Source: Alphaproteobacteria bacterium (lineage in GTDB: Bacteria; Pseudomonadota; Alphaproteobacteria; MPNO01; UBA830). From it: DNA of 64,000 bases. Shown here one piece after another: positions 402 to 63,956 of this stretch. The position numbers and the translations under genes were made by a program. How positions within the stretch are numbered: the first letter of the stretch is position 1; each line of letters begins with the position of its first letter. The notes beneath the pieces are model-generated. The model ran no database searches and had not been told where the DNA came from. It was given only the letters and a program-made list of their open reading frames with translations. The stretch spans positions 2,432,001 to 2,496,000 of the forward strand of contig OZ219790.1 of NCBI GenBank assembly GCA_964291215.2, read 5' to 3'.

Positions 402-1579
402 CCCCACTTCCAGTCTGAAGTGCAACACCCGGCCCTCATCGCAGTGAGGGCGTAGCCCGAACGGAGATGAGGGCCGGATGTTGCACAAATTTTTCCCCTC
501 TGCCCCTCTCGATTCCGCCTGGGAACAGCTTCAGTTCCTTCAACATCGAGCTTATGCAACGCCTTTGTCGGCTTCAAGCCACTATTCCGCCGTCGCGCGG
601 CATGGACCCTGCTGCACGTTGCGGCTGCGGAACGCAGATGGTCAGGGTGGTTTCACTTCAAGATTACCTCCGTCGGCGATCCCAGGACTTTCCGAGTGTT
701 GAGCCGCACCTTCTGAACATCTTCGTTGCATGTCGCGCGAAAGTCCGCGCCCTTCGGGAAGTACTCCCGCACCAGGCCATTGGTGTGCTCATTCAAGCCG
801 CGCTCCCAAGAATGGAAAGGCGAAGAAGAAATCTGCGTCAAGTGCGACACGCCTGTGGTCTGCGAACTCCTTGCCGTTGTGATTGTGTGGACCAATAGCG
901 CACCAGAGCCGAGCAGGCGGATCATGACCGAACCAACCGTGTCTTTCTGTCCACCCAGCAAGGTGTATTTCGTGGCACGAGCGACACGACAGCTCCACTG
1001 TGAGCTTTGCCGATGATGGCTCCCAGTCGCCGATCCGTTCCTTTGCCTCCGCAGGGCGCTCGGAAATGTCCACCCGGCCGGAATGGCATCCGCCCTTCCA
1101 GTTCGGCTTCTTGCCGCGCCGCCGAAGCTTCTTCCACAAGGCACCCCCAGCTCTCCGATCTTCGGCGATCATGGATCCGTTCACGGCCTTCCAGTCGAAA
1201 ACGGCCGCTGCTCGGGGCCCTCCCGCAGCTTTTTCTGAGCCTCAACCCGAGGCGTCAACCGCCAGGAAACAGACGAGGCGGCCCTGCGTTTCTGCCATCC
1301 TTTGCGCCTGCTTGTGACGGTAACCCCGTCCCCCGGTGTTGCGCTTGATCTCCCGGAAAATTGTTGATCGGCCCAGCTGCCGAGCAATCGCACCTTGTGA
1401 AAGACCGCTTTTCTGCCTCAATCTGACATCGCTCTTCGTAGGTGACGGTAGCCTTTGGACATGAACAAGCTCCCTCCATCTTGTACAGGAACTCTCGCCG
1501 CTACCGCTCCGCAACATCATGCGTCTAAAAACACATGGCCACAGCCCATCATGTGTTGCACTTCACTATGGAACGGGGG
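402..1579 (-). mobile_element. IS30-family element, copy 1, degraded
   Basis: Imperfect 27-bp TIRs CCCCACTTCCAGTCTGAAGTGCAACAC / GTGTTGCACTTCACTATGGAACGGGGG; transposase motifs (IARQLGR..STI.REIKRN, GDWE, SWERGLNEHTNGLVREYFPKG) split over several frames. Confidence 0.92.
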
Positions 1580-1800
1580 GATCTAATCCATACCGCTTCG
1601 CACCTCTGGCGCGAGGCCCGGGTTTCGCGTCTGCTTCTATCTCACTTTGAAGCCTGGCGACCGGCCTCAAGGTTATTTTGGGCGCGCCAGCCATGTGAGT
1701 TACTGCGCTCCTCATCAACTCCGGGCGTGATCACTTCAAAAAATTTGTCGTCGCCCCTTGCCTTGACGACACGATTCCGTACAGTAGTGGCGCATCGAAT

Positions 1801-1875
1801 GCGGGCGTAGCTCAGGGGTAGAGCGCAACCTTGCCAAGGTTGAAGTCGTGAGTTCGAATCTCACCGCCCGCTCCA
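1801..1875 (+). tRNA. tRNA-Gly (GCC)
   Basis: GCGGGCG acceptor stem, anticodon loop TTGCCAA, GTTCGAATC T-loop, encoded CCA. Confidence 0.97.
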
Positions 1876-1965
1876 TCTTTCTTCCAACATTGTCATCCAC
1901 GGTTCCGCCACGCGTGAACCCGTGGTGCGCACCAAGCGGAACGGCTGATTCGGCAACCGCCGCGA

Positions 1966-2344: not shown

Positions 2345-4825
2345 TCATGACAGGTTGAGTTCACGCAGCTTGGCAAACGGCGAATTCGCGTCGGGGCGGC
2401 GCCGGTTGCCGGCCTCCTTGCGCAGGCCCGGTCGTCCCGCCCACGCCCACATCAAGATCCCGCCCTCCTCGCGCGCGGCATAGCCCATGGCCTCGAAGAC
2501 GGGGCGCGCCTCGGCAAGCGACAGGCCGAGCAGGTTGAGTTCGGCGGCGCCGATATCGAGCGCTCCCGCCCGTGACCGGCGGCGCAGATCCACGGCGAGA
2601 CGCTCGAGCACATCGATCCTGACCGCCCGCCCGCCGAGCGTCCGATAGCCGCAAGCCTCCAGGAAATCCTCGGGAAGGTCGCCCCCGATAGGTACGGTGA
2701 CGCGGCCGGGGGGTGGCGGCTCCGCCGGCGCCCTGTCCGCGTGCAGGCTCCACAGCAGAGCCCGCCACGCGACGGCAGCCGGCTTGACCAGCGCCGGCAC
2801 GAACAGCGACTCGGCGCCGATGATGATTCCACAAGACCTGAGAGCGGCGCGGTCTGCAGACCTCAGGTCCCGAATCTCGCGACGCGCCGTGGCCCGCGGA
2901 ATCGACCCTAGGCCCTCGACCACCCGGTAGGCCAAGCCGCGAGCCACGCCCTGAAGCCCGTTCTCACGCAGATCAAGTAGCGGCCCGAGATCCGCGACAA
3001 GCCGGGCCTGCAGCCAGTCGGACAGACGCCGCCCGATTCTGTCGCGCTGGCTCGAAGTCAGATGCTCGCCGATCCGCACCCGGATCTCCGGCGAGAGAAT
3101 GTCCGGTCCCCCGGCGAGGCGCGCCACGACCGAGCCGGACCAGATAAGCTCGCCGTCCGGACGGACGACGAAGTCGGCGTCCGCGGCCCCGAGGAGCGCC
3201 CGGAGCCGCGATCCGATCTCACTTCGGAGCGCGCGGCCTGCCGCCGCCCGTAAGACGCGCCCTTCCTGGCCGACGGCGCCGGAATCGGCGAAGAAGCAGA
3301 ACCCGTCCAGGCGTCCGACGAATTCGCCCTCAACCGCAACCTCGCCGTCCTCGGCCACGACTGCCGACAGGTCGTCGCGTCGCCGCGCCCGCGTAAGCAC
3401 CGTCGTGCGCCGGTCCACGAATCGCTGCGTGAGATTCTGATGGAGCGCATCGGAGAGCCGGTCCTCGATCTCCCGGGTTCTCGCCTGCCACGGCTCGGCG
3501 TCGGCGAACCAGTCGGCACGATGGGCAATGTACGTCCATGTCCTCACATGAGCGATCCTCGCCATCAGGGCGTCGATGTTGCCGTCGACTCGGTCGAGCT
3601 GGGTTACCTGGCGCGCCACCCAGTCGACGGGAAGCTCTCCGCCACCGGCGAGATGGCCGAATATCCGGGCGAGCAGTGTCGCATGGATGTCGGCCGTAGT
3701 CTGACGAAAATCCGGGATCTGGCAGACCTCCCACAGCAGCCTGACCGTGTCGGGGCTGCGGGCGCGGTCGCGGATCCGCGGTTCGGCGGCAAGGCGCTCG
3801 AGCGCGATGCGGTCATCCGCATCGCGCATGCGCCACAGTTTCGGGCGCTCGGGCCTCACGTCGAGGGACTTGCGGAGCGCTGTCGAGGACCTGAAATCGA
3901 GATCGCCGTTGCGCCAGGAGATCCCCCGGATATGCTCGAACCGGTGGTCCTCGATGGCCGAGACGAGCGAGTCCTCGAACGGCCCGGCCTCGGCGATCGG
4001 ACCGAACGTTCCGTCATTCATGTGGCGCCCGGCGCGGCCGGCGATCTGGGCGACCTCGGCCGTTGCAAGCCTGCGGCGCACGCGCCCATCGAACTTGCGC
4101 AGCCCGGCGAAGGCGACATGGTCTATGTCCATGTTGAGCCCCATGCCGATGGCATCGGTGGCAACCAGGAAATCAACATCGCCGGACTGATAGAGCTCCA
4201 CCTGGGCGTTGCGGGTGCGCGGGCTGAGGGCACCGAGTACGACGGCAACGCCGCCGCACTGGCGACGCATCAGGTCGGCGATCTCGTAGACCTCGTTGAG
4301 CGAGAAGGCAACCACGGCGCTCCGCCGTTTCAGCTTGGTCAGCTTGCGCGGCCCGGCATAGCTCAAGCTCGACAGCCGCGGCCGCCCGGAAACGACAATT
4401 CCGGGGACCAACGCCTCGATGATCGGGCGCATGGTCTCGGCGCCGAGGAACATGGTCTCCACCGTGCCGCGGGCGTGCAGCAGGCGGTCGGTGAAGACAT
4501 GGCCGCGTTCCGGGTCCGCGCACATCTGTATCTCGTCGATCGCGAGGAACTCGACCCTGCGATCGATGGGCATCGATTCGACCGTACACAGGAAGTAGTC
4601 GGCGCGCGGCGGCAGGATCTTCTCCTCGCCGGTGACGAGCGCCGTGCGCTCGCGCCCGCGCAACGCGACAACGCGGTCGTAGTTTTCGCGCGCCAGCAGC
4701 CGCAGCGGAAAACCGATCATCCCCGAGCCGTGGCCGAGCATGCGGTCGATCGCGTAGTGCGTCTTGCCGGTATTCGTGGGCCCGAGAAGCGCGGTCAGGC
4801 GGGATCGCTGCCGAACGGAGGACAT
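2345..4825 (-). CDS. SUV3/MgpS-like ATP-dependent helicase
   Basis: GPTNTGKT Walker A, DEIQ, ATDAIGMGLN, QIAGRAGR; start taken at MSSVRQ. Confidence 0.92.
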   Translation of the reverse strand: MSSVRQRSRLTALLGPTNTGKTHYAIDRMLGHGSGMIGFPLRLLARENYDRVVALRGRERTALVTGEEKILPPRADYFLCTVESMPIDRRVEFLAIDEIQMCADPERGHVFTDRLLHARGTVETMFLGAETMRPIIEALVPGIVVSGRPRLSSLSYAGPRKLTKLKRRSAVVAFSLNEVYEIADLMRRQCGGVAVVLGALSPRTRNAQVELYQSGDVDFLVATDAIGMGLNMDIDHVAFAGLRKFDGRVRRRLATAEVAQIAGRAGRHMNDGTFGPIAEAGPFEDSLVSAIEDHRFEHIRGISWRNGDLDFRSSTALRKSLDVRPERPKLWRMRDADDRIALERLAAEPRIRDRARSPDTVRLLWEVCQIPDFRQTTADIHATLLARIFGHLAGGGELPVDWVARQVTQLDRVDGNIDALMARIAHVRTWTYIAHRADWFADAEPWQARTREIEDRLSDALHQNLTQRFVDRRTTVLTRARRRDDLSAVVAEDGEVAVEGEFVGRLDGFCFFADSGAVGQEGRVLRAAAGRALRSEIGSRLRALLGAADADFVVRPDGELIWSGSVVARLAGGPDILSPEIRVRIGEHLTSSQRDRIGRRLSDWLQARLVADLGPLLDLRENGLQGVARGLAYRVVEGLGSIPRATARREIRDLRSADRAALRSCGIIIGAESLFVPALVKPAAVAWRALLWSLHADRAPAEPPPPGRVTVPIGGDLPEDFLEACGYRTLGGRAVRIDVLERLAVDLRRRSRAGALDIGAAELNLLGLSLAEARPVFEAMGYAAREEGGILMWAWAGRPGLRKEAGNRRRPDANSPFAKLRELNLS

Positions 4826-4933
4826 GGCTTCAAGATGACGACTTGCGGAACCGCTGGCAAGGTCTTGAAACCCGGAACGAAGCGCATATATGGGAGTGAA
4901 CGCCTCAACACAGCGCACCGGAGAGTTACGCCC

Positions 4934-6811
4934 ATGGCAAGGGAAAAACTGAGTTTCGAGACCGAAGTTTCGCGGCTGCTGCACATCGTTGCCAACTCAC
5001 TCTACAGCAAGAAGGAGATCTTCCTTCGCGAACTGATTTCGAATGCCTCCGACGCCTGTGACCGGCTGCGCTACGAGGCGCTGACGAAGCCCGAACTGCT
5101 GCCCGGCGGCAGCGGCTTCGCCGTGCGGATCTCGACCGGCGGCAGGGGCCGCATGCTCGAGATTTCGGACAACGGCATCGGCATGAACCGCGACTCCCTG
5201 ATCTCCGACCTCGGCACCATCGCGCGCTCGGGCACATCGTCCTACATCGAGGCGCTCGAGGACTCGGACAAGGCCGACGTCAACGCCATCGGACAGTTCG
5301 GTGTTGGCTTCTATTCGGCGTTCATGGTCGCCGAGGAGGTCGAGGTCACAAGCCGCCGCGCCGACGAGGACCAGGCCTGGCGCTGGCTGTCGGACGGCAC
5401 CGGCGAGTTCGAGATCGAGGAAGCCGAGCGCGAGGAATGCGGCACCACCATCTGCCTGAAGCTGAAGAAGGACCAGAAGGAGTTCTTGGAGCTGGACCGC
5501 CTGCGCGACATCATCCATACCTACTCGGACCACATCGCATTGCCGATCGTCCTCGTCGACGGCGACGGCAACGAGGAAACCGTCAACCAGGCCTCGGCGC
5601 TCTGGACGCGGGCGCGCAAGGACATCTCTAAGGAACAGTACGAGGAGTTCTACCACCATGTCGGCGGAATGGGCGAGCCGTGGTTAACGCTGCACTGGAA
5701 GGCCGAGGGCGCGCTCGAATATGCGAACCTGCTCTTCGTACCCTCGATGAAGCCGTTCGACCTCTTCGATCCGAGCCGCCGCCACGGGGTTCGCCTGTTC
5801 GTCCGGCGGGTGTTCATCTCGGCCGACGCCGAAGGCCTTGTACCGACGTGGCTGCGCTTCCTGAGCGGGGTCGTCGATTCCGAGGACCTGCCGCTCAACG
5901 TCAGCCGCGAGATCCTCCAGAACAACCCGATGATCGCGCGCCTGCGCAAGGCGATCACCCGGCGCGTGCTGCGCGAGCTCGGCAAGAAGGCCGACAAGAA
6001 ACCGGACGAGTACGGGGAGTTCTGGAACAACTTCGGGGCCGTAATCAAGGAAGGCCTCTACGACGACTTCGAGAACCGCGACAGGATCCTCAAGATCGCG
6101 CGCTTCCGCTCGACCGTCGGCGGCGAAGAGCTGGTCAGCCTCGACACCTACCTGTCGCGCATGAAGGAGGGGCAGGAGGCGATCTACTACATTTCGGGAG
6201 ACGATCCCGAACAGGCGCGCAAGAGCCCGCAGCTCGAGGGGTTCGTCGCCAAGGACATCGAGGTCCTGCTCATGACCGACGCCATCGACGAGTTCTGGAT
6301 CCCGGCGCTCGGGGCCTACGAGGAGAAGCCCTTCAAGTCCGCGACCAGGGGCGGCGCCGATTTCGACAAGATCGCGGCCGCCGGGGACGCGGAGCCGGAC
6401 GAAAAGAGCGAGGACGAGGCGGACCGGGGGAACATCGACGCCCTGATCTCGATCTTCCGCCTGACCCTCGAGAACCAGGTCCAGGACGTTCGCGTCTCCG
6501 AGCGCCTGACCGACAGCGCCGTCTGCCTCGTGGCCGACGAAACCGCCCTCGACATCCGGCTCGAACGCATGCTGAGGGAAAGCGGCCAGATCGAACAGGC
6601 ATCGAAGCGCATTCTTGAGGTCAATCCCGGCCATCCGCTCGTCCAGTCGCTCGTCGCCTCGATCGGAAAGGACAGGGCCGGCAGCAAGGTCGATGACGCC
6701 GCCTGGCTGCTGCTTGATCAGGCGCGCATCGTCGAGGGCGAGAAGGTCCCGGATCCGGCCGCGTTCTCGCGGCGCATGAACCACGTGATGGCGGCCAGCC
6801 TGTCAGGCTGA
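4934..6811 (+). CDS. htpG: Molecular chaperone HtpG (Hsp90)
   Basis: SLYSKKEIFLRELISNASDA, IGQFGVGFYS, DSEDLPLNVSRE; start at MAREKLSF. Confidence 0.97.
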   Translation: MAREKLSFETEVSRLLHIVANSLYSKKEIFLRELISNASDACDRLRYEALTKPELLPGGSGFAVRISTGGRGRMLEISDNGIGMNRDSLISDLGTIARSGTSSYIEALEDSDKADVNAIGQFGVGFYSAFMVAEEVEVTSRRADEDQAWRWLSDGTGEFEIEEAEREECGTTICLKLKKDQKEFLELDRLRDIIHTYSDHIALPIVLVDGDGNEETVNQASALWTRARKDISKEQYEEFYHHVGGMGEPWLTLHWKAEGALEYANLLFVPSMKPFDLFDPSRRHGVRLFVRRVFISADAEGLVPTWLRFLSGVVDSEDLPLNVSREILQNNPMIARLRKAITRRVLRELGKKADKKPDEYGEFWNNFGAVIKEGLYDDFENRDRILKIARFRSTVGGEELVSLDTYLSRMKEGQEAIYYISGDDPEQARKSPQLEGFVAKDIEVLLMTDAIDEFWIPALGAYEEKPFKSATRGGADFDKIAAAGDAEPDEKSEDEADRGNIDALISIFRLTLENQVQDVRVSERLTDSAVCLVADETALDIRLERMLRESGQIEQASKRILEVNPGHPLVQSLVASIGKDRAGSKVDDAAWLLLDQARIVEGEKVPDPAAFSRRMNHVMAASLSG

Positions 6812-8113
6812 AGAGCCGCCGTCCGGACCGCCGGCAGCAAGCGCAGCACCCACCAGATAGAGCGATCCGCAGAGCACGATCCGGCGCCACCGCCGGGTGT
6901 GCGCCGCCAGTTCGACCGCGCTCTCGGGCGTCGGCGCCGTCTCCGCCGGGATCCCGGCGGCCCTGGCGGCGGCGGCGAGCCGGTCCGGGGCCAGCCCCTC
7001 TGCTCCTGGCGGAAGCGCGGTCGTGATCACCCGGTCGACGATGCCGACGAACGGGCGCAGGAAACTGGCGGCATCCTTGTTGGCCTGCATGGCGCAGACC
7101 AGCGACGCCGGCCGCCCTCCTTCGAGGCCGGCAATGGCCCGGGCAAGCGCCTGCCCGGCCGCGGGATTGTGCCCGCCGTCGATCCACAGTTCGCACCCGC
7201 TGGCAAGCGCCGCGAATGGCCCGCCGTAAAGGCGCTGGAAGCGCCCCGGCCAGGCCGCGGACGACAGGCCCGCCGCCGCCGCATCGCGGCCGAAGGATTC
7301 GCGCCGCCAGCGCCTGAGCGCAGCAAGCGCCGTCCCCGCATTGACGACCTGGTGCGGCCCGGCCAACGCCGGTGGTGGCAGCCGGAGGGCGCCGTGGCGA
7401 TCGCGGAAGACCATGCCGTCCGGGCACGGCGCCGCCTCCCAGGCCGCCCCGGCGGCATCGAGGGGCGACGCGGTCCGCGCTGCCTGCCGTTTGATGACGC
7501 CGAGCGCCTCCGGCTCCTGCGGCGCAACGACGCAGGGCACGCCGGGCTTGAGGATGCCCGCCTTCTCGAACGCGATGTCGGCGAGGTTCTCGCCGAGAAA
7601 ACCCGTATGATCGATGGATATCGGGGTGATCACGGTCAGCTCCGGCTTCGCCAGAACGTTGGTGGCGTCGAGGCGCCCGCCGAGCCCGGTTTCCAGCAGC
7701 AGGAGATCGGCCGGCTGGCGCGAGAACGCAAGAAAGGCTGCCGCCGTCGTGATCTCGAAGAACGTCACGGGGGCGCCGCCGTTGGCGTCCTCGCACTCCT
7801 CGAGGATGGCCGCGAGTTCGGCCTCGGCCACCGGCACCCCGTTTACGACGATGCGCTCGTGGAACCGAACCAGATGCGGCGACGTGTAGACATGCACGGA
7901 AAGGCCGGCCGCCTCGGCGACGGCGCGCATGAAGGCTATGGTCGAGCCCTTGCCGTTGGTGCCCGCGACATGGATCACCGGCGGCAACCGCGTCTCGGGA
8001 TGTCCAAGCGCAGCCAGCAGCCGTTCGATCCTGCCGAGCGACAGGTCGATGAGTTTGGGGTGAAGCGAGGTCAGCCGTTCGAGGACGGCGTCACTCGCCA
8101 GCGGGCGGCTCAC
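6803..8113 (-). CDS. folC: Folylpolyglutamate/dihydrofolate synthase
   Basis: HVAGTNGKGST, ETGLGGRLDATN, DGGHN; start uncertain (GTG 8113 or ATG 8164). Confidence 0.93.
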   Translation of the reverse strand: MSRPLASDAVLERLTSLHPKLIDLSLGRIERLLAALGHPETRLPPVIHVAGTNGKGSTIAFMRAVAEAAGLSVHVYTSPHLVRFHERIVVNGVPVAEAELAAILEECEDANGGAPVTFFEITTAAAFLAFSRQPADLLLLETGLGGRLDATNVLAKPELTVITPISIDHTGFLGENLADIAFEKAGILKPGVPCVVAPQEPEALGVIKRQAARTASPLDAAGAAWEAAPCPDGMVFRDRHGALRLPPPALAGPHQVVNAGTALAALRRWRRESFGRDAAAAGLSSAAWPGRFQRLYGGPFAALASGCELWIDGGHNPAAGQALARAIAGLEGGRPASLVCAMQANKDAASFLRPFVGIVDRVITTALPPGAEGLAPDRLAAAARAAGIPAETAPTPESAVELAAHTRRWRRIVLCGSLYLVGAALAAGGPDGGSSA

Positions 8114-8334
8114 CGTGGCCTTCGCGGCCCTGCCGAGCGTCGGCAGAAGAGCGCCCGGATCCATGTCTTCCGGCACCGGGGTCTTTCGCAGGACTTTCCC
8201 ACGCTGTGGTTGATGTATTGAATGACCGCTGAACGGGGCACAAATTTCCGCATTCTTGCCAGGTTTTCCGGCTGCGGCGACCCGTGGACGGCCCCGAGGC
8301 CAGAAAACCCGGCAGGCTGTGCAACCTCCCTCCA

Positions 8335-9228
8335 TCAGCAGTCGGCAAGATCGAATGCAGCATGGGAAAGTCCCAGGGTCTTTCGCCTCAGCAGGTCGAT
8401 GATCCGCGCCAGAACCTCGTGCAGGTCGCGTCTGGGGACAACCATGTCCAGCATGCCATGATCGAGCAGATATTCCGCGCGCTGGAATCCCTCGGGCAGC
8501 TTCTCGCGGATCGTCTCCTCGATGACGCGTGCGCCGGCAAAGCCGATGACGGCACCGGGCTCGGCGATCGCGATGTCTCCAAGCATGGCGAAGGACGCCG
8601 AGACGCCGCCGGTCGTCGGGTTCGTCAGGACGACGATATAGGGCAGCCCCGCTTCCTTGACTTCCTCGACGGCGATCGTGGTCCGGGGCATCTGCATCAG
8701 GGACAGGATTCCCTCCTGCATCCTCGCGCCCCCCGACGACGGCACCACTACCAGCGCCGCGGAGTTCCGGACCGCCAGCCGGGCGGCGGCCAGTATGCCG
8801 TCGCCCACCGCGACGCCCATGGAACCGCCCATGAACGAGAAATCGAATATCGCGGCGACCGCGTTCGAGCCTCCGATTCTGCCGTGGGCGACGACGATCG
8901 CGTCGTTGCGGCCGGTCGACGCCCGCGCGTCCCTTAGCCGCTCGGAGTAGCGCCGCCGGTCCCTGAACCGGAGGGGGTCCATGGCCGCCTCGGGCAGTTC
9001 CGCCTCGACATATTCGCGGTCGTCGAACAGCAGCTCCAAGCGTTCGGTTATCGGCATCTGCATGTGATAGCCGCAGCTTGAGCAGATGTGGAGGCCGTCC
9101 TTGAGATTGCGGTGAAACAGCATCTGTTCGCAGGACGGGCACTGGTGCCACAGGTTCTCGGGAACCTCGGACCGGTCGCCGACAAGCGAACGGATCTTCG
9201 GCCGGACATAGTTGGTGAGCCAGTTCAC
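8335..9228 (-). CDS. accD: Acetyl-CoA carboxylase carboxyltransferase beta subunit
   Basis: [11 protein letters not shown], CxxC zinc finger, [16 protein letters not shown]; GTG start overlaps the trpA stop. Confidence 0.96.
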
Positions 9229-10070
9229 GCGCCGTCTCCGCCATCGCGCGCGGCGCGGACAGCGCCCGCGAGCTCGGACACGAATCCCAGGGCCGGGGCG
9301 ACGACGCGGTCCGCGGCGCCCGACATGCCGCCATCCTCTACCGCCTGCCTGATCTTCTCGACGATGGCCGTCCCCACGACCGCCGCGTCGGTGACGCGCA
9401 CGATCTCCGCGGCCTGTTCCGGGGTCCGGATTCCAAAGCCGACCGCGATCGGAAGCCCCGACCTCGAGCGAATTCGTGCGAGTTGCTCCTTGATCTCGGC
9501 AACCTGCGCCGACTTGGTCCCCGTGATGCCGCGCACCGAGACATAGTAGATGAACCCGGAGGCGCCACGGACGAGCTCGTCCATCCGCGCCTCCGTGGAT
9601 GTGGGCGCGAACAGGCGCACGATATCGATCCCCGCCGCCCGCGCCGGTTCGGCGAGCTCGGCTTCCTCTTCCGGCGGCAGGTCGACGACGATCAGCCCGT
9701 CGACGCCGGCGTCCCTGGCCTCTTCGGCGAACTTCGCGGGGCCGCGGGCATGGATCGGGTTGTAGTAGCCCATGAGCACGATCGGCGTTTCGCCGTCCGC
9801 ATCCCGGAACCGCGACACCATCGCCAGCGTCCTGTCCATCGTCTGCCCCGCAGCCAGCGCCCGTCCGCCGGCGCGCTCGATTTCGGGGCCGTCGGCCATC
9901 GGATCGGTGAAGGGCATGCCGAGTTCGATCACGTCGGCGCCTGCGGCCGGAAGCCCGGCCAGGATGTCGGCGGACAGTTCGGGACTGGGGTCGCCGGCGG
10001 TCACGAAGGTGACGAGCCCGCCGCGGCCTGCGGCGCGGAGCGCCGCGAAACGCGCCTCGATGCGGCTCAA
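9225..10070 (-). CDS. trpA: Tryptophan synthase alpha chain
   Basis: [26 protein letters not shown]; TTG start overlaps the trpB stop. Confidence 0.96.
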
Positions 10071-11278
10071 AGCGAAATCCCCAAGGCATCGGCGACCGCG
10101 AAGACGTCCTTGTCGCCGCGGCCGCACATATTCATCACGATGAGATGGTCGTCTTGCAGGTCCGGCGCGATTTTCAGGACATGGGCCAGCGCGTGCGACG
10201 GCTCGAGCGCGGGGATGATGCCCTCCAGCCGGCTGCACAACTGGAACGCCTCCAGCGCCTCGCTGTCGGTCGCCGACACGTACTCGACGCGGCTGGCATC
10301 GTGGAGCCAGGCATGTTCCGGACCGATGCCGGGATAGTCGAGCCCGGCCGAGATGGAGTGCGCCTCCTGGATCTGGCCGTCCGCGTCCTGCAGGAGATAG
10401 GTCCGGTTGCCGTGGAGCACGCCGGGCACGCCCGCGGACAGCGACGCGGCATGGCGCCCGGTCTCCAGCCCGTCGCCGGCGGCCTCGACGCCGACGATCC
10501 GCATGCCCTCGTCGAGGAACGGGTGGAAGAGGCCCATCGCGTTGGACCCGCCGCCAATGCAGGCGACCAGCGTGTCCGGGAGACGCCCTTCCGCCTCCAT
10601 CATCTGTTGTCGGGTCTCGTCGCCGATGACCGACTGGAAATCCCTCACCATCTCCGGATAGGGATGGGGCCCGGCGACGGTGCCGATGATGTAGAACGTG
10701 TCGTCGACATGGGCGACCCAGTCGCGGAGCGCCGCGTTCATGGCGTCCTTGAGCGTTGCGGAACCGCTTTCGACCGGCACCACCTCGGCGCCCAGCAGCG
10801 TCATGCGGAACACGTTGGGCCTTTGGCGATCGATGTCGGTCGCGCCCATGTAGACCACGCAGGGCAGGCCGAACAGCGCGCACACGGTCGCCGTCGCGAC
10901 GCCGTGCTGCCCGGCCCCGGTCTCGGCAATGATGCGGGTCTTGCCCATGCGTCTGGCAAGGAGCACCTGGCCCAGCGTGTTGTTGATCTTGTGCGCACCG
11001 GTGTGGTTCAGCTCGTCGCGCTTGAAATACACCTTGGCGCCGCCGCAGTGCGCGGTGATCCGCGATGCGAAGTAGAGCGGGCTGGGCCGGCCGACATAAT
11101 GCTTCAGCAGATCCCTGAATTCGGCGCGGAAACCGGGATCCTCCCGCGCCGTCTCCCAGGCCGACTCGACACGCAGGAGCAGCGGCATCAGCGTCTCGGC
11201 GACATAGCGGCCGCCATAGATGCCGAAATGCCCGTCCGTGTCGGGGCCGGCGCGGTAGGTGTTGGGCGCGGAACTCAT
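10067..11278 (-). CDS. trpB: Tryptophan synthase beta chain
   Basis: [34 protein letters not shown]. Confidence 0.97.
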
Positions 11279-11366
11279 CGGCGCACGGCCCGTTCGCGCG
11301 GCCGTAAAACCCCGCGGCCGCGGGCAGGGACCGGATTGTTGGCCTCCGGGGCCTGGACTGACATCC

Positions 11367-12020
11367 TCATCGCGAAGCCTCCGTGGTGGCGCCGAGAAAG
11401 GCGCCGATAAGCGCCGGGTCCTTGAGCCCGGGCGCCGATTCGACGCCGGACGAGACATCGACGGCTGGAGCGCCCGAGATCCGTATCGCATCCGCGACGT
11501 TTCCCGGCGCGAGTCCGCCCGACAGCATCCAGGGAAGCCGCCATTCGCGCCCCGACAGGATACTCCAGTCGAAGGCGACCGCGTTGCCTCCCGGCATCGC
11601 GTTGATCATACGCGCAGGCGTCTTGGCATCAAACAGCAGCATGTCGGCAACCTCGAGATAGCGGTCGGCTACCGCCAGGTCCGCCGCCTCCGACACCTTG
11701 ATCGCCTTCATTACCCGCCGCCCGGCGCGGTTGCGGATCCCGACGACCCGATCCGGCGTCTCGCGGCCGTGAAGCTGCAGCATCACCGACGGCGAGATCG
11801 CGGCAAGGCGGTCGACGAGACCGTCCTCCGGATCGACGGACAGCGCGACCGGCACCACGTCCGGCGGCAGCAGGGCGGCAAGCTCGACCGCCCGCTCGGG
11901 CACGATATGGCGCGGCGACACCGGATAGAAGACGAAGCCGACATAGCGAGCGCCGCTGACGACTGCGGCCTCTAGCGCGTCGCGGCTGCTGACGCCGCAG
12001 ATCTTGACGTCGACCGTCAT
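11367..12020 (-). CDS. trpF: Phosphoribosylanthranilate isomerase
   Basis: [18 protein letters not shown]. Confidence 0.95.
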
Positions 12021-12787: not shown

Positions 12788-13130
12788 CAAGGAAGCGTGC
12801 CGGCAGCGAACGCGTCTCGGCCGCGGCAATCCGGGCGTCCGGCGCGCCGGGAGACATCGTCCCTGCGCCGCCCCGCGGCTCGAGGCGCCGGAGCTCGCGT
12901 TCCGCATGCCGTGCGCGCCGCCGCCAGCGGCTGCCGGCCAGCCAGCCGACCGCTATGCCGATGAACACGCCAGTCGCCAGCGCTGCAAAGGTCCACACCG
13001 AAACCGGCACCTCGATGGCGGCCGGCAGGGGCCAGAAATGGATGGATACGGGCTGCAGGTTCTTGACTGTGAACGCGCCAAAGACCAGCGCCAGGGGTAT
13101 GAACAGGGCTATTGCCGCAAGACGCTTCAC
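12780..13130 (-). CDS. LapA-family small membrane protein
   Basis: Two hydrophobic segments followed by a basic coiled tail; conserved position between ihfB and pyrF. Confidence 0.75.
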   Translation of the reverse strand: MKRLAAIALFIPLALVFGAFTVKNLQPVSIHFWPLPAAIEVPVSVWTFAALATGVFIGIAVGWLAGSRWRRRARHAERELRRLEPRGGAGTMSPGAPDARIAAAETRSLPARFLDD

Positions 13131-16110: not shown

Positions 16111-16111
16111 G

Positions 16112-27834: not shown

Positions 27835-27838
27835 TCCG

Positions 27839-53188: not shown

Positions 53189-54366
53189 CCCCACTTCCGG
53201 TCTGAAGTGCAACACCCGGCCCTCATCGCAGTGAGGGCGTAGCCCGAACGGAGATGAGGGCCGGGTGTCGCGCAAATTTTTCCCCTCTGCCCCTCTCGAT
53301 TCCGCCTGGGAACAGCTTCAGTTCCTTCAACATCGAGCTTATGCAACGCCTTTGTCGGCTTCAAGCCACTATTCCGCCGTCGCGCGGCATGGACCCTGCT
53401 GCACGTTGCGGCTTTGGAACATGGCGCAGATGGTCAGGGCGGTTTCACTTCAAGATTACCTCCGTCGGCGATCCCAGGACTTTCCGAGTGTTGAGCCGAT
53501 CCTTCTGAACATCTTCGTTGCATATCGCGCGAAAGTCCGTGCCCTTCGGGAAGTACTCCCGCACCAGGCCGTTGGTGTGCTCATTCAAGCCGCGCTCCCA
53601 AGAATGGAAAGGCGAAGAAGAAATCTGCGTCAAGTGCGACACGCCTGTGGTCTGCGAACTCCTTGCCGTTGTGATTGTGTGGACCAATAGCGCACCAGAG
53701 CCGAGCAGGCGGATCATACCAACCGTGTCTTTCTGTCCACCCAGCAAGACGTATTTCGTGGCACGATCAACCAGCGACAGCTCCACTGTGAGCTTTGCCG
53801 ATGATGGCTCCCGGTCGCCGACCCGTTCCTTTGCCTCCGCAGGGCGCTCGGAAATGTCTACCCGGCCGGAATGGCATCCGCCCTTCCAGTTCGGCTTCTT
53901 GCCGCGCCGCCGAAGCTTCAAGACGCCCCCAGCTCTCCGATCTTCGGCGATCATGGATCCGTTCACGGCCCTCCAGTCGAAAACGGCCGCTGCTCGGGGC
54001 CCTCCCGCAGCTTTTTCTGAGCTTCAACCCGAGGCGTCAACCGCCAAGAAACAGACGAGGCGGCCCTGCGGCGCGTTTCTGCCATCCTTTGCGCCTGCTT
54101 GTGACGGTAACCCCGTCCCCCGGTGTTGCGCTTGATCTCCCGGAAAATTGTTGATCGGCCCAGCTGCCGAGCAATCGCACCTTGTGAAAGACCGCTTTTC
54201 TGCCTCAATCTGGCATCGCTCTTCGTAGGTGACGGTAGCCTTTGGACATGAACAAGCTCCCTCCATCTTGTACAGGAACTCTCGCCGCTACCGCTCCGCA
54301 ACATCATGCGTCTAAAAACACATGGCCACAGCCCATCATGTGTTGCACTTCACTATGGAACGGGGG
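53189..54366 (-). mobile_element. IS30-family element, copy 4, degraded
   Basis: Same TIRs and body as copies 1-3. Confidence 0.92.
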
Positions 54367-57610: not shown

Positions 57611-58787
57611 GTAACTGCTCACCCCCTGGTTCCGGCTTGATGTCGGGGTAGAGTAACGAACGGGTTTTCGTGGAGATTTGACACCCGATTCGTTTAGTGG
57701 TGGTCATCGAGAACGACGGGGACCGCCAGTGGGCTACTTTGGATCGAAGGCGACGAGCGGGCTGTGCCAGCTGCTTCCGGGGCTCCGCATGATCTGTATG
57801 TGGAAACGCATCTCGGAAGCGGCGCGTTGATGAAGCGCAAGGCCGGGTGATGGCGACGGGCGGCGCGCGAGGAGTTCGAAGCGGCCAAGACCGCGGCGCT
57901 GCCGGCAAGGTGGCGGAAGAGGCCGTCATCCGCGTCTTCGTCATCCTGCTCGACATCCTCATCGTCGTCCTTCCGGAGAAGACTACGCACGAGCCGGAAC
58001 TCCGGTCTGCCGCCGTCACAGACGGACAAGAGCGTGCCGGGAGCAAGGGCCCGAAGCCGAACCGGCAGATGGGCGACAACCTGCGCAAGACCATCGTCAA
58101 GGAAACGGTCGCAACCTGCGACGCCTGCGGCGCCGACGGCCCCGTCGATCGGGAACGCCGCATGACATCGTGTTCGAGGTCGTCGAGCGCCGCGCCGAGG
58201 AATGCCCGAAATGCAAGGCCCGGTTCCCCGACAACATCCCGTGCAGTACGGCATCCAGGCCCTCGTCCCTGCTGGTCGCCCAGATGCTGTCCCTGCGCCG
58301 TCGCGCTCGTGCAGGCGATCTCCGGCATCAAGCTCTCCGAGGCCTCGGCTATGCTTTCACGATGCGTCATGGGAGGAGGCTGCCGTGGCGCACCTCCTGC
58401 AACGCCCGATGTCGACGATTTCGGATCAACAGCAAGTGGCTTCATGTCGTCGGGACGTGCAAGTTCCCGCACCGCAAGCAAGAGATCGGCCCGTGCTACA
58501 AGGGCGTCCTGGGCCTCGTACATGGCAGTGTAGCCACCAGCGGCAGCCACCTGCTGCGCGAACTGACCTTCGTCGTCGAGGCTACCGCGCGACTGATGAA
58601 GAGCCTGCTCCCTGCCACAAGGTCAACAAGAGCGCATCCAAAAACCCTGAACGAGGCCGGGCGCTACCGCACCATCAGGGCGCCAGGGAACTGCCCGACA
58701 TCCCGACGAAAGGAAAACACATCGCAAACGCGCACAACCTGCACGAACGTCTCGTGAAACACGAAAACCTGCGCTTCACAGACGACC

Positions 58788-61471
58788 ATCGCGGTAGGGA
58801 ACCGGGTTACCCCCCGCACATAACCGGACGTGCGCTGTTCGCTCCTCCCCTGACGACAAGGCGCTGGTTTGGCCACGGATGCTGGCTCAGTGGGCAGCGG
58901 TGAGGGTGTCTGTGTCCCCGGTGAAGTCCTTTTGGGAGCGTCGCCGAAGGGCACGCAGCTGTTTGCATTGGTGTATGAACTTCTGCAGGCTGCTTCCCGG
59001 AACGGCGTAGTAGCAGCCGTTGATGACTCACCACTTGGCCGTTTCGTGCCGGTTATCGTGCCACCGCATGCGCAAGGCCTCCTTGATCCGCCGCAGGGTG
59101 CCCGTTTGCGACCGACCCTGAACCTGCCTTTCCTCGTCTGTTCGCAGAAGTGCGTCATGCCGAGGAAGTCGAACGTCTTGTCCACGCTTCCGGCGGTTCG
59201 CTCTGGCAAACCGACCGAACTCGATGATTTTCCGGGTGCAGTTCAAGTGGGCCAGTCTCTCCCCAAGGTCTCAGCGCCGCCCAGATGCTGAAAGCCGCAC
59301 ACGAAGTCGTCCGCATAATGATCGTGTCCCGCTTGCGCCAGTGGTTCTGGAACCAGTCGCACGTAGTGCAGGTTCGCAAGGCGCCGCCCCTTGCGGTGTT
59401 CCCTTGCCAGTCGGTCCCTTCCATGACGCCGGCGTCACTTGATGATCAGACCCCCCGATCCGTTTTTTTCCCGGGTACTGTAACTTGATGTCTGGAAATT
59501 TATCTGAGATTTGCGCTTTGAGGCGTTTCACTGGGGGGCTAGCCCCCCAGTGAAACGCGGCGCCATCGTGCTATCCCATGGAGTTGTAAAACATTCATGG
59601 AGGAAGCGAATGGACCTGCGACACACTACGACGATTGAGGCCGTTTTGGAACATCTGATCGCAAACGGAGCAACGGATCTGGGGCGGATCTTTGGTCAGC
59701 TCTTCGAGCTTGCGATGCAAATCGAGCGCGAGCAGCACTTGAGAGCGGGCCACCGGACACCGGAACGACAGGGCTATGCCAACGGCTACAAACGGATCGA
59801 CACCCCCACTGTTGCCAAACGGTCACGGGGACGACCCCCCAGTCGCTTGAACGCGGCCAGCGATCTTCTCGCGCCGTAGCCGAGATGTACATCAAAGGTG
59901 TTTCCACGCGGCAGGATGTAATGCGCGAGTTCGGGAGCCTGTCCTCTTCTCAGGTCAGCCGGGCCACCAAGTTGCTCGATGAAGAACTCGCCGCGCAACC
60001 GGCCCCTGATGAAATACCTGGATGCGCGCTATGAAAAAGCCCGCCATGACGGCGTTGTGCGCGATGTTGCAGTGCTCTCGGCCATCGGAATAGGGGCTGC
60101 AGGCACGTTCTGGGGCTCTCTGTGGCGCTCTCCGAGGCCGAGGTCCATTGGAGAGCCTTCCTGGAAAGCTTGCTAGCCCTGCATGGTACGACCTTCATCG
60201 TCTCGGATGCCGGGCTGAAAGCGGCACGACGCGCGGTGCTGGGCGCGGCGATGTGGCAGCGCTGCCAGTTCCACCTGGCGCAAAACGCCGTGCACCGAAC
60301 AATGACATCAGGAAACGTATTGGAAAACAGCTCGGAACCATGCGTCCTCACTCCAAAACGCCGAGGCTGAACTGGGCGCCCTCGTGGCCAGCTATCGCGA
60401 CAAGCATCCAAGCTTCCTGGCTGGAAAAGAATGCGGGGCTCGCTGTCTTCACCTTGCCCGATGCTCACCGCAAGCGCATGCGAACCTCGAACGGCATCGA
60501 GCGGCCGATCCAGCAAGAACTCAAGCGGCGCACCTCCAAAGTCAGGGTCTTTCCGAACCTCGCCTCGTTGGAGCGCCTCTCAACCGCGGTCCTCATCGAC
60601 AAAAAATGGGAAACCGAAACCAAGATCAAATGGGAACAGCTCGATGACTGAGAGCTTCACGACAATTTCCAGACATCAGGTTGCGTAATCGTTTCCCGAG
60701 CATCGCAACCAGATGGTCGCGGTTGTCGAAGAACCCACGGGCGTCAACGATCCAGTTGACCTTCCGCCGTTCCACCGTGACGGCGCATGATGCGCCCCGG
60801 CCGGAACCGAGGAACTCCGTTTCGCGGCACCAGAATCACACCGCCCGCTGAAGAATCTTGTCCGAGGCAAGTTGCCCCTCCTTGGGAATGTAGACCCTGG
60901 AGGCGCCCGCCCCTGTGCACACGGGCGTGCAGCAGTTCCACCCCGTACGTTTGCCACACAACGCCCCGCCGCCGCATCCTTCCTCAAGGAATGGAACGCA
61001 GAACATCACGTGGTGGAGTAAAGACGCTCTTCCGGGTTCCTCTTCGCTACCTGCCGCCTGTGACCCCCGCTTCTGCGCGCGGCGCGGGCCAACCGCATTG
61101 CCCTTCCCTCCAGCAACTCCGCAGGCTCCGGAGAGCCCTTGTTCGCCGCCTTCAGCGGTACTATGGCCGAATCTGACTTCTCGTTCATCATCGGCTTACG
61201 GAATTTCCTCTGCGGCCCCTCCACGACAGAGGGGCAAGACCTCCCAGGTCCCTGCTTCGGCCATGGTTCTCGGACCCCGCGGAGCCCCCCTCACCAACGC
61301 GGCTCGTTGCCTTCGGCCACGACCTCGGCACTCCGGTTTCAAAGCATCTCGTGGCTCAATAGCCTGGCCTGCCGCTCCCCAACGCTTCGCCTCACAACGC
61401 ATGGTTCACGGAGAAATTAGCCTCTCTCGGGACTTGCACCCGGCCACATTCCACCAGTTTGCCTGGCGCAC
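58788..61471 (-). mobile_element. Group II intron, both ends present, degraded RT/maturase
   Basis: 5' GTGCGCCAGG at 61471, 3' ...CCCTACCGCGAT at 58788; GTPQG, YADDF (59317-59303), FDFLG. Confidence 0.9.
59474..60690 (+). mobile_element. IS256-family element, degraded
   Basis: TIRs sharing AAC.TGATGTCTGGAAATT; 7/8 target duplication (T/G)TTTCCCG; WQRCQFH, RTSNGIER. Confidence 0.9.
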
Positions 61472-61825
61472 CCGACGTCAGCTTCACCAACAATGCCGGA
61501 GAACAGAAGATCAGGATGGCAAAGCTCAAGGTGTCCGGATGCTTCCGCTCCACGCAAAAGCTTGGTGCCAAGCTACCTCACCTCCATAGCCGCACTCGGC
61601 TACAACCCACTCGTCGCCACCCAGATCGCCCTCGACGGAAAAGCCGCAGACATCATCAACGAGCACTACGACCAATCAGAACCCAACTAGGGGTGAGTAG
61701 ATACGATCAATTTATTTTAGCGAACGCCCTTAGGGCGCCGCCATGTCGAACATCCTTCCTCTTCCGGCCCGCAAGCGGGCTGTCCGTCGGGGGCCTCCCG
61801 GAGACGATGCCAGAGGTCTTTCCCG

Positions 61826-62446
61826 GTGAGCCTTCCGGCGACGCCGCACGATGCGCTGTTCCGGGCGCTGATCTCCGAGCCGGCCCGCGCCGCTTCGCTG
61901 CTCGCGGAGTACCTGCCGCCGGAGGTGGCCGCCCTCCTCGACCCCGAGGCCCCGCCCGAGGCGGTCGAGGGCAGCTTCGTCGACGAGGACGCCGCGCGGA
62001 CCCAGTGCGACGTACTCTTCCGGGTCAGGCTGAGAAGCGGCCACGAGGCGCGCCTCTATGTGTTGCTCGAACACAAGAGCCGCGTCGATGCTGACACGCC
62101 ACTCCAGCTCCTGAAATACATGGTCAACATCTGGCGCCGCGAGATCGAGAATGGCGGTGCCGGGGACAGGTTGCCGACGATCATCCCGCTGGTCTTCTAC
62201 CATGGCCGGGGCCGTTGGACGGCGCCGCTCTCGGTGCCGGGGATGATAGACGCGCCCGGGGAGTTGGAGCCGTTCGTCAGGGAGTTTGCCTATGTGGTGC
62301 ACGACCTTGGCGAGATTGCGCCAGACCGGCTGTCGGCCTCACCCGAGGTGCGTTCTGGCGCTCAGGGTCGTTCATGCCGAGGAGATACCGCCCGATCTTC
62401 TCGACGAGATGACGGGCAGGGTGATCTTACGCTAAATTCTGTCTGA
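61826..62446 (+). pseudogene. Rpn/YhgA-like PD-(D/E)XK nuclease, C-terminally truncated
   Basis: HDALF, SFVD, CDVLF, YVLLEHKS, IPLVFYHG; runs into the repeat at 62425. Confidence 0.82.
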
Positions 62447-63956
62447 TTTTTCAAGGCAGTACCTGGGCTTTGCGGGGTCGCGGGTTGGTGCGGGAGATTT
62501 TTTTACAGTTTTCGCTGGCTTTCCTGCACTGAAGTTGTCATGGTGCGGGGATGTCGGTTCACAAGCACTTCGCATCCTGTCCGATTCACGTCGCAGCTCC
62601 GGAAGGGTCTGTCCGAGCATCCATGTTTCTTGGCAAGGTTTTTGCGGGTGTCTGTGGTGATGTTTTCTGTGGTTGTCCACAAGCGGTGTGGGATTTGCTC
62701 TGCGAGCGAGGCGACATGAAGCTTGTGGTCCCAGCGGCGGGTTGCCGTCCATTGGTCACGTGAACGCGGCTACCTTGCCGTCCCCGGGCACGTGACCGTC
62801 CGGGTTCCAGGTGTCCCAAGGCGGTTCGGTCTCCTTGATGTCGGCCTCGACGATGATCTGCAGACATTCTTCCCAAGTCGTGTCGTAGAGGGAGACTGTC
62901 GAGACAGTCCCGATCGCGCTCTCGGCAGGGCCGTGTCTCCTTCGCTCACTCACCGGTGCTTCAGGCAACGCTGCTGTCGCAGCAAGGTGTTCGCCAGAGC
63001 TTGCGCATCACGGCGACAATCGCGACTTTGTGGGCCTTGCCGGCAGTCTTGAGGCGCACCAGGTCCGCGTTGAAGCGTGCCGGTTGCGGCCAGGAGATCG
63101 CGTGGCCTTCGGTGCCCGCCACGGATGTGCCGAGCACCGTGGTCGTTGGCGCCACCCCGATCAAGGCTGCCGACGCTGCCGAGTTCGGGCATCCAGCAAA
63201 GAAGGGCTGCGGCGGTCACCGGACCGGGGATCGAGGTCAGGATGGCATACCTCTGCTTGGGATCACCGGCGATCACCGCTTTGATCGCCGCGCCGGCAAT
63301 GCGATCATCGAGATCGGCCGCCGAGGCCCTTGTGACGGTCTCGCCATCTACCTCATCTGCCACCTGCTTGGCGTCGACAAGCGCGGCACCAAGAGATCCT
63401 CCAGGCTCTTGAGGAAGGCGAAGCCACAGGCTCGAGATCGCCCAGCCGATCTTGGCGTCGACGCGGTCGGTCTTCGCCAGATGGCCCATCGCCTCGGCGA
63501 AGCCCGCAACGGGTTGACGAGAATAACCTCGAAGCCCCGGTCATGAAGACACTGGTGAACCTTGCGGTGATAGCGGCCTGTCGCCCACCACCCGGCTCAC
63601 CCCGAGGCCGCGAAGCCACCTGCCCGTGGCGTCGTTCGCAAAACAATGCGCCAGATGTCCAGACTGGCTGACCCCTGCTACTATCTTGACCATCGTCCCT
63701 TGCTCCTCCCCTTACGATGATACGGGTTCAAACCCAAGTATCCAGCGAGGGACGTCAAGGGAGGTTGCCACACTCGGACACGGCCCTGTCAAGGTCGAAA
63801 CGGCAACCTCCGCGGAGATCGTTTGACCCCCTGTGCGTGTTCGCTCAGGGGAGCGGAATCTCTCTGCAACCATAGCTCTCCCACAGATCCACATTTTCCC
63901 GCCCCCAACTGCTGTGGATGATTTCATCATCAAGGGGACAAAACCTGGTCATATAA
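62425..63956 (-). mobile_element. Second copy of the unclassified repeat with nested degraded IS110 (about 62927-63875)
   Basis: AKTDRVDA, LTSIPG, WMPELG, RHIRGG, VMRKL; near-identical to 51705-53188. Confidence 0.85.

What the first reader, a model, noticed from the sequence alone, without database searches (positions are those of the whole stretch)
402..63875. Mobile elements shredded by stereotyped ~6-nt deletions while host genes are intact: candidate repeat-inactivating process
Seen: every IS and intron ORF here is broken into many frames, yet the housekeeping genes are uninterrupted. Hand alignment of sister copies gives a narrow indel size range. IS30 copy 1 vs 4: six indels of 5,6,7,5,6,5 nt against roughly two dozen mostly transition substitutions. 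IS630-A (18858-19411 vs 41221-41798): 6,7,7,6,6,6,6,6 nt plus two 1-2 nt events. IS66 pair: 6,7,12,6,6,6,5,~6,5,7 nt. IS110 pair: mostly 5-8 nt with two larger. Many junctions carry 1-4 nt microhomology (CTCC-AGC-CTCC, GAC-ATC-GAC, TGCC-GA-TGCC), and they are not at homopolymers. Known: bacterial deletional bias exists, but spontaneous small indels are usually dominated by 1-nt events. Inference: a specific cut-and-rejoin or slippage process removes about 6 nt at a time. It could be aimed at repeated or mobile DNA (a deletion analogue of fungal RIP), or act genome-wide and be purged from genes by selection. No responsible enzyme is identifiable in this window.
Basis: partly seen in the sequence, partly recalled or inferred. 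Interest (0 to 1): 0.92.

Follow-up and report, generated by a model that had tools for sequence, protein, structure and literature searches.

The report
Deletions that spread between transposon copies
In this uncultured bacterium, jumping genes are riddled with 5-7-letter deletions, and nearly identical copies share exactly the same deletions as distant copies without sharing their other changes, which likely means that dead copies pass their damage on to fresh ones.

Summary
Across 1,583 repeat copies, distinct deletions peak at 5-7 nt (608 of 1,130; a power law fitted to 1-4 nt predicts about 24). Contigs from other runs confirm the junctions. Single-copy DNA has the same signature (14 vs 0 gaps of 5-8 nt against a 92-93% identical sister species), and two congeners show an excess of 2-residue gaps in host proteins. 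The rate there is about 0.9 per 100 substitutions, against 19 in repeats. The excess comes from sharing. Copy-private deletions are ordinary (30 of 58 are 1 nt), whereas 140 of 183 sites found in 10 or more copies are 5-8 nt. One intron pair differs by 2 substitutions and 26 deletions; all 25 of 5-8 nt recur exactly in a clade 3% away, but only 2 of that clade's 30 SNPs do. Best reading (0.5, inferred): a low-rate source plus templated, size-selective copying of deletions between repeats. Main rival: guided recurrent cutting. No enzyme was found among the families searched.

The parts
402..1579 (+). IS30-family copy 1 (strand = family consensus orientation); deletions 5,6,7,5,5 against consensus, 18 substitutions
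   Evidence: label from annotated plasmid hits
17669..18857 (+). IS30-family copy 2; deletions 5,6,6
   Evidence: weak HTH_38 hit below cut-off
23653..24837 (-). IS30-family copy 3; deletions 5,6,6,5
53188..54366 (+). IS30-family copy 4; deletions 6,6,6,7,5
18862..19416 (-).
40581..41802 (-). Full copy of family 3; deletions 1,8,6,6,7,6,1,6,6,4,6
19412..20492 (-). IS630-type element (family 7); deletions 6,6,6,6; the family consensus lacks 13 further 5-7 nt pieces present in the G004 homologue
   Evidence: DDE_3 (below cut-off) and HTH_32 hits
32419..34293 (-). IS66-family element (family 10); 14 deletions, 10 of 5-7 nt
   Evidence: PF03050
43672..45596 (-). Unnamed repeat (family 26); 12 deletions, 8 of 5-7 nt
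46957..48421 (-).
57611..58787 (+). Family 0 copy; 26 deletions against 21 substitutions
51893..53186 (+).
62613..63958 (+). Family 4 copy; 18 deletions
58788..59465 (-). Group II intron (family 1), one part; 13 deletions against 6 substitutions
59596..60690 (-). Unnamed element (family 2) lying between the two intron parts; 9 deletions
60690..61473 (-). Group II intron (family 1), other part; 17 deletions against 13 substitutions. This family holds the pair with 2 substitutions and 26 deletions elsewhere in the genome
   Evidence: Rfam RF02005 at 61265-61436
2345..17575 (.). Housekeeping block with uninterrupted frames (internal control); a strain contig over 1799-8218 has 46 substitutions and no gap

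Best explanation
The same 5-7 nt deletions sit in many copies of each repeat family regardless of the copies' SNP background, and they are likely spread by templated copying from deleted copies to longer ones. Step 1 (shown as a pattern, cause inferred): 5-7 nt deletions arise at a low rate anywhere in the chromosome, with a weak two-fold end preference (pyrimidine second, purine second-last, often N-T-C at one end). Step 2 (inferred): when a longer copy pairs with a deleted copy, or with a short fragment of one, the unpaired 5-7 nt loop is cut out and sealed with little or no new synthesis. The deletion is thus gained with exact ends while neighbouring SNPs mostly stay behind. Loops of up to 4 nt would be handled by MutS/MutL, which sets the sharp lower edge; longer loops would be processed poorly. 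Step 3 (inferred): because such a step can remove but not add bases, families ratchet towards the union of all their deletions, and freshly expanded copies are inactivated by resident dead ones. In single-copy genes the same alleles are rare, and only in-frame 6-nt ones survive. Whether this is a selected defence or a by-product of repair is not shown.
For: (a) Intron copies C2:3402928 and C2:173378 differ by 2 substitutions, 26 deletions and no insertion. All 25 deletions of 5-8 nt occur with the same ends in copies about 3% away, but only 2 of those copies' 30 diagnostic SNPs do; three more sisters give 27/27, 27/27 and 28/28. Family 8: 11 of 13 to 13 of 15 deletions shared, 7-11 of 82-83 SNPs. 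Pooled over 22 copies: 249 of 505 far deletions vs 153 of 903 far SNPs (copies are not independent). (b) Carriers of a deletion shared between subfamilies keep their own diagnostic SNP on both sides in 72 of 86 cases (74 of 78 and 82 of 96 at other thresholds). (c) 129 of 228 deletions of 5-8 nt reach 10% of copies or more, vs 684 of 4,105 SNPs, 11 of 61 one-nt and 3 of 25 long deletions. (d) Private deletions away from shared sites: 9 of 58 are 5-8 nt; sites in 10 or more copies: 140 of 183. (e) Local linkage: r2 SNP-SNP 0.41, 0.31, 0.27 vs deletion-SNP 0.20, 0.15, 0.13 at under 10, 20, 40 nt. (f) A donor-type SNP travels with a gained deletion in 6 of 14 cases within 10 nt vs 4 of 36 at 11-60 nt (p = 0.02). 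(g) In the family 27 copy with 39 deletions, several events overlapping its relatives' sites have other ends (read by eye), while 4,857 carriers of common sites share exact ends against 67 one-nt length variants. (h) Single-copy rate 0.85 and private repeat rate 0.67 per 100 substitutions agree; the repeat load is 19.4. (i) MutS and MutL are present; bacterial mismatch repair handles loops up to about 4 nt efficiently, and the E. coli large-loop repair proteins were unidentified in 2008 (PMC2504288, passages read).
Against: No enzyme was found. Direction was not shown independently: gains outnumber losses (44:14), but so do they for SNPs (109:57; Fisher p = 0.19), and with looser pairs deletions are less biased than SNPs (125:78 vs 378:161). 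In the key pair the longer copy could instead have regained its pieces from an unseen donor. Between sister copies, common deletion sites switch only 1.3 times as often as common SNP sites (0.217 vs 0.17 of the unrelated expectation). Gained deletions are not clustered along the element (18 cases, combined p = 0.89), which argues against ordinary local tracts and fits site-by-site recurrence equally well. The private-spectrum test masks shared sites, so it would also hide true hotspots; unmasked, 29 of 44 singletons lie within 8 nt of a common site (expected 25%), some through alignment shifts. A few copies carry many deletions with no donor in this genome: 31 in a two-copy intron, 14 in a two-copy transposase, 10 private ones in the family 27 copy. 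G004 has the strongest host-protein signal but a weak one in its sampled repeats.
Confidence: 0.5

Rival explanations
1. Recurrent cutting at fixed sites. A guide-directed or strongly site-selective nuclease makes a 5-7 nt staggered cut at the same places in every copy; the overhangs are lost and the ends joined. Exact sharing then reflects recurrence, not copying.
For: Sharing without flanking SNPs; gains scattered along the element; two-fold end preference in two species (N-T-C start at 42% vs 19% of 269 sites; 54% vs 17% of 61 in G002), equal on both strands (67 vs 72); singletons near common sites; site density of about one per 40-60 nt both in a 161-copy family and in a two-copy intron.
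Against: The motif gives only about two-fold enrichment, far too little to pick about 40 of 1,600 positions. The most deleted family 27 copy often uses other ends at its relatives' sites. None of 113 CRISPR spacers matches a repeat family. No match in G000 to Piwi, Ku, ATP-dependent ligase, NucS, endonuclease V or VII, S1/P1 nuclease or topoisomerase IB. SNP co-transfer within 10 nt needs a template.
Confidence: 0.22
2. Bursts aimed at mobile DNA, then inheritance (closest to the reader's RIP analogue). Single copies are hit by many new deletions at once; broken copies are then mobilised in trans and shuffled by ordinary gene conversion.
For: Strong overdispersion (3-30 deletions per copy in family 0, variance 33.6 vs mean 13.8). 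Burst-like copies: 31 deletions vs 45 substitutions, 14 vs 31, 39 vs 25. Broken copies keep target duplications (30 of 55). SNP linkage decays with distance, so conversion occurs.
Against: It does not explain 25 of 25 deletions identical to a distant clade's without that clade's SNPs. Few private 5-8 nt events in the nine big families (9). Host genes carry the signature. The two-copy intron is at 60-90 times single-copy depth in run X16, so donors may have existed.
Confidence: 0.13
3. A steady genome-wide mutator of about 6 nt, with selection alone sparing the genes.
For: 14 vs 0 gaps of 5-8 nt in 121 kb of single-copy DNA; gaps of 1/2/3 residues 37/70/11 in G004 and 13/25/3 in G002 vs 18/4/2 in G003 and 45/6/9 in unrelated genomes.
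Against: About 20-fold lower rate per substitution outside repeats (intergenic constraint could hide part of it); ordinary private spectrum; deletions are shared rather than private (9,622 instances, 1,130 distinct clean events).
Confidence: 0.09
4. Assembly or polishing artefact.
For: X14 may be the window's own sample; the library type of the runs is not on record; the key intron pair itself was not checked against reads.
Against: X14 and X15 contigs reproduce a 31-deletion copy without gaps; 5-6 nt indels appear among element contigs of three runs; only 19 of 965 single-copy orthologue hits were flagged as possibly broken, many of them tandem paralogues; G002 shows the same peak and end motif, G004 mostly not.
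Confidence: 0.01

Closest known systems
Repeat-induced point mutation (RIP) of fungi (features recalled; only search listings seen)
   Same: Damage concentrates in repeated DNA and leaves whole families dead.
   Different: RIP writes new C-to-T changes in a dinucleotide context. Here the changes are 5-7 nt deletions, mostly pre-existing ones shared between copies; C-to-T rates are nearly flat by context; single-copy DNA is also touched.
Gene conversion between repeat copies, and biased gene conversion (recalled; the one search for 'deletion-biased gene conversion' with 'bacteria' returned a human meiosis paper, listing only)
   Same: Non-reciprocal sharing of alleles among copies; SNP linkage decays with distance; a skew to high frequency is the usual sign of a conversion bias.
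   Different: The shared alleles are one size class of deletion and mostly travel without flanking SNPs; ordinary tracts carry both.
Large loop repair and the loop-size limit of MutS/MutL (PMC2504288, passages of abstract, introduction, methods and results read)
   Same: Bacterial mismatch repair is efficient up to about 4 nt, where the spectrum has its trough; loop-directed removal exists; the E. coli proteins were unidentified.
   Different: Described for loops of tens to hundreds of nt, with no 5-7 nt window and no genome-scale footprint; the paper says 5-8 nt loops are still repaired by mismatch repair, less efficiently.
Deletion bias in bacterial pseudogenes (PMC6054270, passages read)
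   Same: Deletions exceed insertions; 6 nt is over-represented; microhomology at 171 of 396 deletions; Ku-type joining absent from most of those genomes.
   Different: There the sizes follow a power law with a bump at multiples of 3. Here 5 and 7 nt are each about as common as 1 nt, and 3 and 4 nt form the trough.

Membership tests
RIP | Context-specific C-to-T hypermutation in repeats | tested here: not met
   C>T rates 1.8-3.9 per 1,000 across 16 contexts, no dominant dinucleotide
RIP | Effect depends on being repeated | tested here: met
   19.4 vs 0.85 deletions of 5-8 nt per 100 substitutions; not absolute
RIP | Changes are made anew in each copy | tested here: not met
   Most instances are shared events; private spectrum ordinary
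Biased gene conversion | Alleles move between homologous copies | tested here: met
   Four-gamete violations and linkage decay; exact sharing across clades, for which recurrence remains a rival
Biased gene conversion | One allele class is transmitted in excess | tested here: inconclusive
   Frequency skew strong; direct gain:loss test no different from the SNP control
Biased gene conversion | Co-conversion of flanking markers | tested here: not met
   Own SNPs on both sides in 72 of 86; co-transfer mainly within 10 nt
Large loop repair | MutS-independent removal of heteroduplex loops | not testable with these tools
   Needs extracts or a reporter; MutS and MutL are present
Ku/LigD end joining | Ku and ATP-dependent ligase genes | tested here: not met
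   0 of 5 genomes each; controls rang
NucS/EndoMS mismatch cleavage | nucS gene; deletions centred on mismatched sites | tested here: not met
   No match in G000; no SNP excess in the middle of deletions
Argonaute or CRISPR guided cutting | Piwi-domain gene, or spacers matching the elements | tested here: not met
   Piwi 0 of 5; 0 of 113 spacers hit a repeat family; the PIWI-RE search had no ringing control and shows nothing; short Argonautes not tested
Aborted transposition scars | A resident family with 5-7 bp target duplications | tested here: inconclusive
   Among 19 families tested: 8 bp in three, 2-3 bp in one, '6 bp' in one whose ends look two bases mis-set, none in the rest; low-copy families untested
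Topoisomerase IB deletions | TopIB gene | tested here: not met
   0 of 5, control rang

The most novel reading that the evidence does not exclude
A dedicated bacterial genome defence in which decayed transposon copies act as a memory: a loop-cutting or guided enzyme writes their 5-7 nt deletions into every new homologous copy, a deletion-based counterpart of RIP that is present in some species of this genus and not in others.
Probability: 0.3. Interest if true: 0.96.

Novelty: categorically new. Interest (0 to 1): 0.88.

Why it matters
Bacteria are not known to have a RIP-like way of disabling repeats by homology (recalled; not found in the 10 searches, a library lacking most subscription papers). 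Under either leading reading, an unknown activity edits deletions into DNA with exact ends and leaves nearby SNPs alone. It would explain how a genome that is 40% repeats keeps its genes intact, offer a way to the unidentified loop-repair proteins, and warn that shared indels need not mark common descent. The signature is strong in G000, G002 and G004 host genes or repeats and was not seen in the sampled parts of G001 and G003, so the cause can be sought by gene content. If the mechanism is plain conversion escaping MutS, the rating drops to a new variant of gene conversion.

Tried and rejected
Mismatch-centred cutting: no SNP excess in the middle of deletions. Hairpins: only 0.2 kcal/mol more stable than matched random sites. 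A 17-nt phasing seen by eye in one intron was not found genome-wide; my flank filter hides spacings under about 16 nt. No regional effect along the contigs. TC-specific deamination: not seen. DarT as source: the G000 gene is intact, but the context is not the recalled TNTC and G004 has no match. Phosphorothioate (DndD) and Vsr: matches only in G002 and G004. RecJ, XseA, RNase HII, PolA, UvrC, MutL, MutS and Cas1 match in 5 of 5 genomes and do not separate them. Gain:loss polarity test: uninformative. CRISPR arrays carry no 5-7 nt deletion but almost no substitutions either, so they say nothing. Single-copy pseudogenes are too few to test. The end motif was not detectable in host-gene gaps (8 of 34 vs 6.5 expected; 5 of 14 vs 3.1). 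The 11-13 nt bump fits two merged events (p = 0.22). Protein gaps for G001, G008 and seven other family genomes were too few to read. The genome scan read 2 of 64 parts and gave only distant relatives; the metagenome scan found none. Whether IS30 copies 1 and 2 are missing in runs X15 and X16 is unresolved. Habitat: ten small-share rows are labelled sponge metagenome; only X2 was laid, on an intron, so habitat is not established. Three look-ups of earlier findings gave nothing on this pattern.
Full report
Setting. The window lies in a 6.15 Mb, two-contig genome of 64% G+C with one 16S gene. Its best PyrF matches in a partial scan are uncultured Alphaproteobacteria at 51-62% identity. About 40% of the genome, and 31,920 of 64,000 window bases, match elsewhere in it. 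I built 63 repeat families covering about 23% of the genome and aligned 1,583 copies (1.49 Mb) to family consensus sequences, leaving out pieces under 200 bp or over 10% divergent. Indels within 15 nt of an alignment end were dropped; 8,124 of 9,622 deletions passed a clean-flank filter.

The observation. The window holds 200 deletions, 152 of 5-8 nt. Genome-wide, distinct clean deletions of 1-13 nt number 187, 47, 33, 14, 160, 276, 172, 53, 36, 8, 15, 34, 18, against 11, 8, 6, 5 expected at 5-8 nt from a power law. The 11-13 nt bump fits merged pairs. Apparent 5-7 nt insertions are almost never tandem duplications (30 of 1,583), so they are bases kept by a minority of copies. An intact G004 homologue shows 13 gaps in one consensus and none in itself. 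Contigs of X14 and X15 reproduce a copy with 31 deletions. Published pseudogene indels follow a power law with a bump at multiples of 3 (PMC6054270, passages read; supplements not opened).

Is it aimed at mobile DNA? Not strictly. Against G001 (92-93% identical, 121 kb single-copy aligned), G000 has 14 gaps of 5-8 nt and G001 none (p = 1e-4; no outgroup, so some could be insertions in G001). Six are in-frame 6-mers in coding DNA and seven are non-coding. Host proteins show gaps of 1/2/3 residues at 37/70/11 in G004 and 13/25/3 in G002, against 18/4/2 in G003 and 45/6/9 in unrelated genomes (p = 8e-5 and 5e-4 against G003). G000's own proteins show only a weak, non-significant excess (25/10/2 against G003). 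Yet the non-coding rate is 0.85 per 100 substitutions (0.34-1.76) and the load in repeats 19.4. G002's sampled repeats show the same peak (19, 33, 5 at 5, 6, 7 nt vs 9 at 1 nt). G004's mostly do not, and G003's sample has almost no repeats.

Where the excess comes from. It comes from sharing. In the nine big families, 129 of 228 deletions of 5-8 nt reach 10% of copies, against 684 of 4,105 SNPs; 1-nt and long deletions behave like SNPs. Private deletions away from shared sites are ordinary (30 of 58 are 1 nt; 9 are 5-8 nt, per 1,335 private SNPs), whereas 140 of 183 widely shared sites are 5-8 nt. That mask would also hide real hotspots.

Sharing is not by descent alone. Two copies of the window's intron family differ by 2 substitutions and 26 deletions, all in one copy. 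All 25 of 5-8 nt recur with the same ends in copies about 3% away, while 2 of those copies' 30 SNPs do. The alignment shows a far-clade SNP three bases from a shared deletion, and one between two shared deletions, left behind. Family 8 repeats this across 6.5% divergence. Across subfamilies, carriers keep their own SNPs on both sides in 72 of 86 cases. Twenty sister pairs within 0.6% differ by 104 deletions at shared sites.

Copying or recurrence? Both fit the above. For copying: ends are exact in 4,857 carriers against 67 one-nt variants, yet a copy with many events of its own often uses other ends at overlapping places; a donor-type SNP accompanies a gain in 6 of 14 cases within 10 nt and 4 of 36 beyond; and the end motif is too weak to fix sites. 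For recurrence: gains are scattered along the element (p = 0.89), singletons gather near common sites (29 of 44), and the motif is real. It was found after a scan of offsets in G000 (N-T-C start, 112 of 269 vs 54 expected) and then confirmed in G002 (33 of 61 vs 17%), on both strands alike, with a mirror-image purine at the other end. A one-way bias was not shown directly: the SNP control was as skewed as the deletions, and common deletion sites switch only 1.3 times as often as SNP sites. A few copies carry many deletions without a donor in this genome; for one, run X16 holds the undeleted element at depth 3,500-5,000 against about 55 for single-copy DNA, so the family is large in the population.

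Mechanism, as committed. Shown: the size class, its presence outside repeats, the 20-fold excess inside, and exact sharing without SNPs. Inferred: a low-rate source with a weak two-fold end preference; pairing of a longer copy with a deleted copy or fragment; removal of the 5-7 nt loop with little synthesis; a lower size edge set by MutS/MutL, efficient up to about 4 nt (PMC2504288, passages read); and a ratchet that disables new copies. No enzyme was identified. Ku, ATP-dependent ligase, NucS, Piwi, TopIB, endonucleases V and VII, S1/P1 nuclease, Vsr and DndD have no match in G000; MutS, MutL, UvrC, PolA, RecJ, XseA and RNase HII match in all five genomes.

Comparison and verdict. It works like RIP in outcome and like biased gene conversion in pattern, and is a member of neither: no context-specific C-to-T change, and little co-conversion. 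Features of RIP, gene conversion, DarT and transposon families are recalled unless a call is given. Ten literature searches showed no description of this pattern in their listings; two papers were read in passages, the rest as listings only. The pattern is solid, the mechanism is about even odds, and both leading readings would be new.

Noticed in passing
L080:7008-8826 (G000:C2:13007-14825), run X16: The undeleted form of this group II intron is at depth 3,500-5,000, and much higher near one end, against about 55 for single-copy DNA: a large recent expansion in another strain.
   Followed up: partly
G000:C1:2496180-2498550 (family 12): Young family just outside the window, with ends like those of family 0; 7 of 12 full copies have no deletion against the consensus. 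Possible helper for mobilising broken copies.
   Followed up: partly
window 402-1579 and 17669-18857: Contigs of X15 and X16 run on with unlike sequence at the edges of these IS30 copies, which may mean the copies are absent in those strains.
   Followed up: partly
L261:70-3189 (G000:C2, about 100983-104102): Intact DarT and macro-domain pair behind a type I specificity gene; the G001 DarT has an internal TAG.
   Followed up: partly
G000:C1:574247-581196 and C2:2068487-2069551: Two CRISPR arrays (98 and 17 repeats) beside Cas1 genes; one spacer has a 92% match over 25 nt elsewhere on C2, and one spacer is duplicated.
   Followed up: partly
G004, 559 single-copy orthologues: Two-residue gaps outnumber one-residue gaps 70 to 37, also in proteins over 80% identical, although its sampled repeats are mostly intact.
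   Followed up: partly
G000 single-copy DNA (3.6 Mb): Almost no single-copy pseudogenes in a genome that is 40% repeats; only one weak case of a host gene split by an element among 1,423 relatives' proteins.
   Followed up: partly
G002 whole genome: Eight Vsr matches and a partial DndD; G004 has one Vsr and a full DndD; none in G000, G001 or G003.
   Followed up: no
L240 (G000:C2:2152056-2152972): Most eroded copy seen: 39 deletions against 25 substitutions in 1.18 kb, with runs spaced about 13 nt apart.
   Followed up: partly
window 25357-27834, 30100-31320, 41385-42938, 61826-62446: Subtilase, HTH plus IrrE-like peptidase, SprT-like and YhgA-like transposase domains between the element clusters.
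   Followed up: no
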